NCBI RefSeq assembly: GCF_009914755.1
Contig: NC_060931.1
Reading direction: 5' to 3' (one strand)
Origin: the human T2T-CHM13v2.0 reference genome, Homo sapiens
Length of the DNA stretch: 64,000 nucleotides
A program made the position numbers and the translations under genes. Shown piece by piece: positions 43,601 to 46,600 of the stretch. Below the pieces are notes generated by a model. It had not been told where the DNA came from, did not search any database, and was given only the letters and a program-made list of their open reading frames with translations. How positions within the stretch are numbered: the first letter of the stretch is position 1; every line of letters begins with the position of its first letter.

Positions 43601-46600
43601 ATGGCAGAAGCAGGCTGTCCTTGGGCCTCTTCGGGCTGAAGGCAGTGGATTGAGGCCACAGCTGTGAGCAGGCAGCTAACGTCCTTCAGTTCTAACTGAA
43701 GAGTAGAGGAGCTTAGATCTCAGACTTGGTGTGTCAGTTGAGGAAGTCCACTGGCTTTTTGGGATATGCTACAGGGAAAGAGAACCCTGTCTTTAAGGAG
43801 ACCTGATTAACTATAATTCCCTGTGTCTCCACAGGATGCAGAAGGCTATCAACAGGCTGAGCAGGCTTCTGAAACCTGGGGGGATGGTACTTCTGCGAGA
43901 TTACGGCCGCTATGACATGGCTCAGCTTCAGTTTAAAAAAGGTATTTTGAGAGTGCTGAATCCTAACCACTAGAGATCATGTCCTTTGCAGGGACATGGA
44001 TGAAGCTGGAAATCATCATTCTCAGCAAACTAACACAAGAACAGAAAACCAAACACCATATTTTCTCACTCATAAGTGGGAGTTGAACAATGAGAACACA
44101 TGGACGCGGGGTGGGGGGCATCACACACTGGGGCCTGTCTGGAGGTGGGGGGGCTGGGAGAGGGAGAGCATTAGCAGAAATACCTAATGTAGATGACGGG
44201 TAGATAGGTGCAGCAAACCTCCATGGCACGTGTATACATATGTATCAAACCTGTATGTTCTGCACATGTACCCCAGAACTTAAAGTATAATTTTAAAAAA
44301 AAAAAAGGTATGTGGCCACTATAATCAAAAAATGGTGCTGCCATCAGAATAGAAACTCTAGAATTAGAACTCCTTATATAAAGCCATTTAATATGTGACA
44401 GAGTAGTATATTTTTTAAGAAAACTGAAGAGGCTTGTATAATCTAGATATTGAGGTCTTTTTAAGCAAGACAGCTACCTTTAGAAGAGCTTTTATTAGAA
44501 AGACATTTGAAAGACAGCCGGGCGCAGTGGCTCATGCCTGTAATTCCAACACTTTGGGAGGCCGAGTCGGGCAGATCACCTGAGGTCAAGAGTTCGAGAC
44601 CAGCCCGACCAACATGGAGAAACCCTGTCTCTACTAAAAATACAAATTAGCCGGGCATGGTGGCACATGCCTGTAATCCCAGCTACTCGGGAGGCTGAGG
44701 CAGGAGAATCGCTTGAACCCAGGAGGCGGAGCTTGCAGTGAGCCGAGATCGCACCATTGCACTCCAGCCTGGGCAACAAGAGTGAAACTCTGTCTCAAAA
44801 AAAAAAAAAAAGACATCTGAAAGACATAAATAATTTTAAATGTGGCATGACAAAAGATGCCATTAAAAATGTAAAAGGCAAATGACGGAGTAAGAAGGAA
44901 TATTTTCAGTGCATATAATAGATGAAGACTTAATATCTTTGCTCTTCAGGGAGCTGTCATGAAACTGATAAGGATCAGTGACCCACCCAAAAAGCAGGTG
45001 AAGAGTGTTTAGTCAGTTCACAGAAGAACGTATCTAAATGGCCAGTAAACAACACTTCAAGGAAATAAAAATAACAAGTTAGTACTTCTTATTGCTGGCC
45101 AATTCAAAGAAAGAGGTGCATTCCTTCATTACTGGTAGAAAAAGAAATTGTTACAGCCTTTTTTTTTTCAGATGGAGTTTTGCCCTTGTTGCCCAGGCTG
45201 GAGCGCAATGGCGCGATCTCGGCTCACTGCAACCTCTGCCTCCTGGGTCCACCCACCTTGGCCTCCCAAAATGCTGGAATTACAGGTGTGAGCCACTGTG
45301 CCCAGTATTAACAGCCTTTTTTTTTTTTTTTTTTTGAGACGGAGTCTCGCTCTGTCTCCCAGGCTGAAGCGCAATGGCACGATCTCGGCTCACTGCAACT
45401 GCAACGTCTGTCTCTTGGGTTCAAGCAATTCTCCTGCCTCAGCCTCCCGAGTAGCCGAGACTACAGGCATGTGCCACCACGCCTGGCTAATTTTTTTGTA
45501 TTTTTAGTAGAGACAGGGTTTCACCATGTTGGTCAGGCTGGTCTCAAACTCCTGACCTCAGGTGATCCACCCACCTCGGCCTCCCAAAGTCCTGGGATTA
45601 CAGGCGTGAGCCACTGCTCCCAGCTTACAGCCTTTTTTTAAGTACCCAATTATTGTTCAGTCCAGTCTTTTTTTGAATATAGTCAAGAACTAGCACATAA
45701 TACATGCAGGAGCAAAACTTTGTAAACAAAGTGAATGCCTCTGGATAGGGAGATGTCGTGCTTGTCACCTGAGGTGGACCCCATTCCACTGAACTTGGAG
45801 GGATTTCTGTTGTGTATTCAGTGAGAGGAGAGCAATGTGCAAGGGAGTATTTTAAACTCCATCCCCGTATACCAGTATCTGCAGGGAAATAAGTATACAC
45901 GTGTGATGATTTGGGCATTCGGGAAGGTCTAGAAGTATGTGCCAGGCTGGTAAACTGAGATGAGGTCAGGGAGGTTAGCAGCAGAAGGGAAAGCATGTTC
46001 ATGATCAAAACAGTATCTGAGTTGTATTTATGATTCTGTAGACACGTGAAGAGACATGCAAAGGACAGTCACCACCAAAATGGTAATGGTTGTCTCAAGT
46101 TTCCTTAAACTCAGCTATATTGCTTAATTAAAGAAAAAAAATAGGCCAGGCACGGTGGCTCATGCCTTTAATCCCAGCACTTTGGGAGGCCAAGGCGGGT
46201 GGATCACCTGAGGTCAGGAGTTTGAGACCAGCCTAGCCAACATGGTGAAACCTTGTCTCTACTAAAAATACAAAAAATTAGCTGGGCGTGGTGGTGGGAA
46301 CCTGTAATCCCAGCTACTTGGGAGGCTGAGGCAGGAGAATCACTTGAACCTGGGAGGCAGAGGTTGCAGTGATCTGAGGTCACGCCATTGCACCCAGCCT
46401 AGGCAACAAGAGCGAAACTCTGTCTCAAAAAAAATAAATAAATAAAAAGTTTGTGCTGTTAGTTTAATAGGGTTGGGAGAGTGAACAAGTTGTTTTCATC
46501 AAATAATTCTAGAGTTTTGGAGTGGGGTGCTTAGGAACCTCATGTTTTCTGACATTGTGACTTACTCCCGTTGAGCTGCTCTTCCCGAAGCACTGAGGCA

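What the first reader, a model, noticed from the sequence alone, without database searches (positions are those of the whole stretch)
43935..44313. L1 insertion at the end of coding exon 7 duplicated the splice donor, leaving the stronger copy downstream
Seen: exon 7 ends in TTT/AAAAAAG, a canonical L1 endonuclease site. AAAAAAGGTAT occurs at 43935-43945 and again at 44301-44311 after the L1 poly-A, forming an 11-bp TSD. The used donor is AAG|GTATTT; the displaced copy is AAG|GTATGT, which has the consensus +5G. Using the distal donor adds 366 nt with an in-frame TAG at 43971-43973. Inference: the gene survived an exonic hit because the TSD rebuilt the exon end, creating a built-in poison (NMD) alternative 5' splice site.
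Basis: partly seen in the sequence, partly recalled or inferred. Interest (0 to 1): 0.7.

Follow-up and report, generated by a model that had tools for sequence, protein, structure and literature searches.

The report
Backwards tRNA piece fused to L1
The old L1 insertion at the end of METTL2B exon 7 carries a backwards 27-base copy of part of a glutamate tRNA, likely copied in the same insertion event; the stronger duplicate splice site likely arose by a later mutation and probably regulates nothing.

Summary
In detail: the repeat, the L1 cut site, 366 added nt and the in-frame TAG are all there. The reading does not. METTL2A carries the same insertion, and its downstream donor is AAG|GTATTT. 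The duplication is therefore 13 bp, and the +5G is most simply a later METTL2B-only change, not a displaced ancestral donor. It joins the L1 head to head through a 2-nt overlap and supplies the TAG. This is the antisense tRNA/L1 chimera class, attributed to twin priming on a second RNA (Law & Burns 2026, 21 loci). This locus is not among the 21. A survey of three tRNA types (98 loci examined) gave 4 L1-partnered events, 2 uncatalogued, and 1 Alu-partnered event. Use of the distal donor could not be tested; RefSeq lists no such transcript. Verdict: new member of a known kind; regulated poison splicing unlikely.

The parts
43835..43941 (+). METTL2B coding exon 7 (107 nt)
   Evidence: RefSeq table; the joined exons give an open 378-codon frame
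43932..43938 (+). L1 endonuclease-type site TTT/AAAA; inferred bottom-strand nick between 43934 and 43935
   Evidence: the TT/AAAA motif is given in PMC13174262
43935..43947 (+). 5' target-site duplication copy, 13 bp (AAAAAAGGTATTT): last 7 exon bases plus donor +1 to +6; holds the used donor GT at 43942-43943
43948..43974 (-). tRNA-Glu-CTC nt 11-37, antisense to the gene and to the L1; begins one base past the anticodon, directly against the duplication
   Evidence: 25 of 27 identical to an ARAGORN-called tRNA-Glu(ctc) gene; both mismatches are CpG G>A
43971..43973 (+). first in-frame TAG if the intron start is read; lies inside the tRNA piece
43973..43974 (.). 2-nt overlap (GA) shared by the tRNA piece and the L1 at the inversion junction
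   Evidence: compared with 8 independent L1 copies and the tRNA gene
43973..44294 (+). 5'-truncated L1 3' end (about 320 nt), sense to the gene; L1PA7/8-like (subfamily label recalled, not from a call)
   Evidence: 89-92.5% identical to 8 close L1 copies
44197..44207 (+). second donor-like site inside the L1 (CGG|GTAGATAG), made by two METTL2B-derived changes at 44202 and 44206
   Evidence: 7 U1 matches, -7.3 kcal/mol; polarity
44295..44300 (+). remnant poly(A), running into the A's of the duplication
44301..44313 (+). 3' duplication copy (AAAAAAGGTATGT); distal donor GT at 44308-44309; +5G at 44312 is T in METTL2A

Best explanation
The insert is a two-part retrocopy, an antisense piece of tRNA-Glu-CTC (nt 11-37) joined head to head to a truncated L1 3' end inside one 13-bp target-site duplication, likely made in a single event by twin priming on two different RNAs. 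Inferred steps: L1 ORF2p nicked the bottom strand at TTT/AAAA, 7 nt inside exon 7, and copied L1 RNA from its tail. The top-strand end 13 nt away primed on a tRNA in its anticodon loop at A37. The two cDNAs met through a 2-nt GA overlap, which cut both short. The duplication spans the exon end and donor +1 to +6, so the upstream copy kept the original donor unchanged and the gene survived (shown by sequence). The event predates the METTL2A/2B duplication (shown). The +5G of the distal donor is likely a later METTL2B-only substitution. The distal donor is predicted to be at most a minor cryptic site whose product would go to NMD, with no selected role.
For: tRNA identity is 25 of 27 with only CpG decay. 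One duplication flanks both parts, with no bases left over and no tRNA nt 1-10 after the L1. The cut-site consensus fits the L1 orientation. The junction overlaps by 2 nt. Of 12 stand-alone tRNA-Glu 5'-half retrocopies, 9 end at the same nt 37, 2 at nt 36 and 1 at nt 39, so this is the usual RNA breakpoint. The published class has the same orientation, breakpoint region (1-37) and proposed mechanism, as do inverted U5/L1 chimeras. METTL2A shares the insert and has T at distal +5. Within the L1 piece, 9 of 15 paralog differences are METTL2B-derived, 5 METTL2A-derived and 1 unclear.
Against: No pre-insertion ortholog could be fetched, so the 13-bp duplication and the direction of the +5 change rest on parsimony. 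There is no clear overlap (at most one T:A pair) between the duplication end and the tRNA, whereas only 28 of 605 inverted L1s lack one at the 5' junction (PMC2912911). Twin priming is inferred from structure, not shown. No RNA data were available, so use of the distal donor is untested, and on paper it is now the better U1 match.
Confidence: 0.82

Rival explanations
1. The distal donor is a working poison 5' splice site that tunes METTL2B through NMD. This is the first reader's function, but it would have arisen after the gene duplication rather than being built in by the insertion.
For: The distal site has 7 U1 matches against 6, and the used donor is among the weaker of the 8 used METTL2B donors scored. 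The stop lies 334 nt before the new junction. METTL2B also gained a second donor-like site at 44200. An NMD target would be hard to see in RefSeq.
Against: RefSeq lists 1 transcript. The site is not conserved even in METTL2A. The exon would be 473 nt. Young LINEs are reported to recruit splicing repressors, though mostly antisense L1, and this one is sense (10.1101/297853, passages). None of the 20 papers listed mentions METTL2B.
Confidence: 0.08
2. The ancestral donor was GTATGT, the duplication is 11 bp plus two untemplated T's, and METTL2A later lost the +5G.
For: It also needs only one substitution, and selection could favour weakening a competing donor in METTL2A.
Against: It needs two extra bases that happen to extend the METTL2A repeat exactly to 13. 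Extra 5' bases occur in 3.9% of inverted L1s. METTL2B is the derived copy.
Confidence: 0.06
3. The tRNA piece came in another way: two successive insertions, or capture from a tRNA gene's DNA during repair of the L1's 5' junction.
For: Stand-alone tRNA-half retrocopies are common (12 for Glu), and short templated patches at L1 5' ends are known (own knowledge).
Against: There is a single shared duplication, no second duplication and no leftover tRNA nt 1-10. The end at nt 37 matches RNA-derived retrocopies, which DNA capture would not predict.
Confidence: 0.08

Closest known systems
Antisense tRNA/LINE-1 chimeras (Law & Burns 2026, PMC13174262; 21 loci, Table S3)
   Same: Antisense tRNA 5'-half piece at the 5' end of a truncated L1, ending near nt 37; one duplication of 9-19 bp; endonuclease motif; twin priming proposed.
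   Different: Not among the 21 rows. The piece is shorter (27 nt; shortest listed 28) and more 5'-truncated (starts at nt 11; latest listed start nt 8). It sits on a coding-exon splice donor and exists in two copies through segmental duplication.
Inverted U5, U1, U2 and U6 snRNA/L1 chimeras (Doucet et al. 2015, PMC4476161)
   Same: Second RNA copied from the top-strand nick, opposite to the L1, truncated in a loop; cut site fits the L1 orientation.
   Different: Partner is an snRNA; complementarity with the insertion site was seen there and is minimal here.
Tailless tRNA retropseudogenes (Noll et al. 2015, PMC5322556; Schmitz 2004 seen only as cited)
   Same: 3'-truncated tRNA copy without an A tail, ending in a loop.
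   Different: Those stand alone between their own duplications. This one is fused to L1, has lost nt 1-10, and is under that screen's 30-nt minimum.
Sense U6/L1 chimeras (RtcB ligation, PMC6789731; listing and abstract start only)
   Same: Small RNA at the 5' end of a truncated L1 within one duplication.
   Different: Same orientation as the L1. RNA ligation or template switching cannot give the inverted piece seen here.

Membership tests
Antisense tRNA/L1 chimera (twin-priming type) | tRNA-derived segment directly at the L1 5' end | tested here: met
   tRNA nt 11-37 at 43948-43974; L1 from 43973
Antisense tRNA/L1 chimera (twin-priming type) | Opposite orientation of the two parts | tested here: met
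   tRNA on minus, L1 on plus
Antisense tRNA/L1 chimera (twin-priming type) | One target-site duplication of 7-20 bp round the whole unit | tested here: met
   13 bp exact in METTL2A, 12 of 13 in METTL2B
Antisense tRNA/L1 chimera (twin-priming type) | L1 endonuclease motif in the L1 orientation | tested here: met
   TT/AAAA at 43933-43938
Antisense tRNA/L1 chimera (twin-priming type) | tRNA breakpoint in the anticodon loop | tested here: met
   Ends at nt 37; anticodon starts at 34
Antisense tRNA/L1 chimera (twin-priming type) | Microhomology at the junctions | tested here: inconclusive
   2 nt at the inversion junction; none clear at the duplication side
Antisense tRNA/L1 chimera (twin-priming type) | Both parts arrive at the same node in a mammalian alignment | not testable with these tools
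   No other mammalian genome is held; both parts are in both human paralogs
Poison (NMD-coupled) alternative 5' splice site | Alternative donor gives a stop more than 50-55 nt before a junction | tested here: met
   334 nt; the NMD rule is own knowledge
Poison (NMD-coupled) alternative 5' splice site | Donor is used in cells and rises under NMD inhibition | not testable with these tools
   No RNA data; RefSeq lists 1 transcript
Poison (NMD-coupled) alternative 5' splice site | Conservation of the stronger alternative site | tested here: not met
   +5G absent in METTL2A

The most novel reading that the evidence does not exclude
Priming on a tRNA's anticodon loop at the second nick is a much commoner way of closing retrotransposon insertions than the 21 catalogued loci suggest. 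Short, doubly truncated tRNA pieces escape annotation, and the route also works with Alu as partner, with no L1 RNA in the insert. At METTL2B such a tRNA piece supplies the stop codon of an emerging, paralog-specific poison isoform of a tRNA-modifying enzyme.
Probability: 0.12. Interest if true: 0.65.

Novelty: new member of a known kind. Interest (0 to 1): 0.36.

Why it matters
It is a clean fossil of L1 machinery apparently copying two different RNAs from the two ends of one break, and it shows a coding gene surviving an exonic nick because the duplication spanned the whole donor. The small survey suggests that the 2026 catalogue undercounts the class: 2 of 4 L1-partnered events found were unlisted. 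It also suggests an Alu-partnered form exists, which none of my searches showed in print. A k-mer screen of all L1 and Alu 5' junctions would test both and would bear on an open point: cleaved tRNA halves versus internal priming on intact or precursor tRNA. The paralogs are a ready pair for a splicing test, since they differ at distal +5.

Tried and rejected
Rfam scan of 43880-44360: 9 matches at E 1-8.9, all far below gathering scores, and no tRNA match; rejected as chance and too insensitive for 27 nt. ARAGORN finds no tRNA at the locus, as expected for a fragment. Untemplated 5' bases as the source of 43948-43972: rejected by the tRNA match. RNA ligation or template switch: rejected by orientation. 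L118 (Gly nt 11-36, three mismatches, no partner repeat or duplication seen): left out of the count as possible chance. Asp-GTC: 0 of 17 loci examined were chimeras. Glu loci with alignment score under 38 were treated as chance. A search of all 6 readable Law & Burns supplements for METTL2 and for approximate hg38 coordinates (my recalled estimate) gave 0 hits; the firm test is the full read of the 21 tRNA rows. No paper listed or 59 showed this insertion or a METTL2 splice or polyadenylation isoform in its title or abstract start.

Full report
Observation. The window shows exon 7 ending at 43941 in TTTAAAAAAG, then GTATTT. AAAAAAGGTAT recurs 366 nt later. Read-through gives 45 codons and a TAG at 43971-43973. 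Extending the exon to 44307 keeps the frame but holds 8 stops, the first 334 nt before the new junction, and would cut the 378-residue protein at 315 residues. Against a recalled U1 5'-end motif, the used donor has 6 matches (-5.7 kcal/mol) and the distal one 7 (-7.9).

The paralog changes the history. A search of the window's genome with 43800-44420 found one full-length second copy, on chr17 at 95% identity, which I take as METTL2A; the other 39 matches cover only the L1 part. That copy has the same insert, but its downstream donor reads AAG|GTATTT, and its repeat is exact over 13 bases. Three of four copies have T at +5. PMC13333887 (passages) places the duplication from chr17 to chr7 at the human-gorilla ancestor. 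Within the L1 piece, 9 of 15 paralog differences are METTL2B-derived. The simplest reading is a 13-bp duplication of an ancestral GTATTT donor, then T>G at 44312 in METTL2B only. The reverse needs two untemplated T's that happen to extend the repeat. Without a non-human ortholog this remains parsimony.

L1 similarity begins at 43973. The 27 nt at 43948-43974 matched 39 places in the genome with up to 2 mismatches, against 0 for the reversed control. ARAGORN calls tRNA-Glu(ctc) at 5 of the 14 loci scanned; the other 9 are the decayed copies, this one included. The piece is tRNA nt 11-37, antisense, 25 of 27 identical, with both differences G>A at CpG. It starts at the first base after the 13-bp duplication, which independently fits that length, and overlaps the L1 by GA. 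The TAG lies inside it. The L1 part is 89-92.5% identical to 8 close copies. The paralogs share 10 differences from those copies and add 5 and 9 of their own over about 320 nt. At the 0.17% per Myr used in PMC13174262 this is roughly 30 Myr, a rough figure. The L1PA7/8 label is recalled.

Mechanism. Both RNAs have their 3' ends at the two edges of one duplication and meet head to head, the layout of twin priming. Shown by sequence: the parts, orientation, single duplication, cut-site motif and junction overlap. Inferred: a single event, ORF2p priming from both nicks, and annealing of the two cDNAs. Of 59 Glu-like loci examined (tandem-array and clustered gene copies mostly left out), 12 are stand-alone 5'-half retrocopies, and 9 of these end at nt 37. 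Many have their own duplications. Nt 37 is therefore the usual RNA breakpoint, which argues against capture from tRNA-gene DNA. Whether the template was a cleaved half (favoured in PMC13174262) or an intact tRNA primed in its loop (favoured in PMC5322556, passages) cannot be told here. Against the model: there is almost no overlap at the duplication-side junction, whereas most inverted L1s have one (PMC2912911, passages).

Known class. PMC13174262 (abstract, passages, methods part 1 of 2, Table S3 parts 1-2 of 3) reports 21 tRNA/L1 chimeras, mostly half-length and antisense, and proposes twin priming. I read all 21 rows: none is on chr7, and the one chr17 row is tRNA-Met at 37.1 Mb. Their annotation leans on RepeatMasker or on alignments over 75 bp, which likely explains the miss (inference). 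PMC4476161 (passages) gives the same model for U5/L1. The combined PDF mmc7 could not be read, and the supplements of PMC5322556 and PMC2912911 were not opened; a listing of this locus there is not excluded.

Survey. I searched Glu-CTC (39, 47, 50 and 83 overlapping matches; controls 0, 0, 0 and 4), Gly-GCC (66 matches) and Asp-GTC (53 matches). I examined 59, 22 and 17 loci, leaving out most copies in tRNA gene clusters. The partner library was six L1-containing loci and one Alu, so old families can be missed. Four L1-partnered antisense events were found. Two, at chr13 57.10 Mb (Glu, full length) and chr5 86.86 Mb (Gly), agree with catalogue rows by chromosome, rough position and tRNA type, without lift-over. 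Two do not: METTL2, and chrX 46.11 Mb (Glu nt 4-36, older L1, 11-bp duplication). One further event, present in three duplicated chr7 copies, joins antisense Glu nt 12-36 to a 5'-truncated Alu within a 9-10 bp duplication. Asp gave 0 of 17. My search also missed catalogue rows (for example both chr18 rows), so neither list is complete. Searches (listings and abstract starts; open-licence PMC and bioRxiv only) showed no report of a tRNA/Alu inverted chimera.

Function. Nothing here shows use of the distal donor. For use: a better U1 match, a weak used donor, and a second METTL2B-derived donor-like site at 44200. Against: one RefSeq transcript, no conservation in METTL2A, a 473-nt exon, and reported repression of processing at young LINEs, mostly antisense ones (10.1101/297853, passages). 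Searches (listings) showed no METTL2 isoform of this kind. METTL2A/B methylate tRNA-Thr and tRNA-Arg (PMC7237682, passages), not tRNA-Glu in the passages seen, so I read the tRNA-in-a-tRNA-enzyme link as coincidence.

Verdict. A real, uncatalogued member of a recently described rare class. Interest 0.36.

Noticed in passing
L043, L044, L081 (G000:C7:57157703, C7:64856939, C7:103362137): Antisense tRNA-Glu-CTC piece (about nt 12-36) fused to a 5'-truncated Alu within one 9-10 bp duplication; one event in three duplicated copies. Same layout as the METTL2 insert with Alu as partner.
   Followed up: partly
L067/L138 (G000:C23:46110396, minus strand): Antisense tRNA-Glu nt 4-36 joined to an older L1 3' fragment of about 1.1 kb, with an 11-bp duplication; no matching row among the 21 catalogued chimeras.
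   Followed up: partly
L002 (METTL2A copy of window 44243-44249 and 44289-44296): The METTL2A L1 copy has AATAAA (a METTL2A-derived change) and ATTAAA; METTL2B has neither. Possible paralog-specific intronic polyadenylation behind a weak donor.
   Followed up: partly
window 44197-44207: Donor-like site inside the L1 made by two METTL2B-derived changes; it would add 258 nt, past the TAG.
   Followed up: partly
L104, L117: Stand-alone Gly 5'-half retrocopies carry about 5 extra bases matching the upstream flank of the chr1 tandem Gly-GCC gene, suggesting precursor tRNA as template.
   Followed up: no
L118 (G000:C10:125294732): Gly-like antisense nt 11-36 with three mismatches, followed by unassigned sequence and an A run; no duplication seen. 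Chance or an mRNA-partnered chimera.
   Followed up: partly
L015, L041, L054, L073, L092: Near full-length antisense tRNA-Glu copies sharing similar flanks, suggesting carriage inside one repeat family (the catalogue lists a tRNA-Glu beside LTR2C on chr2).
   Followed up: no
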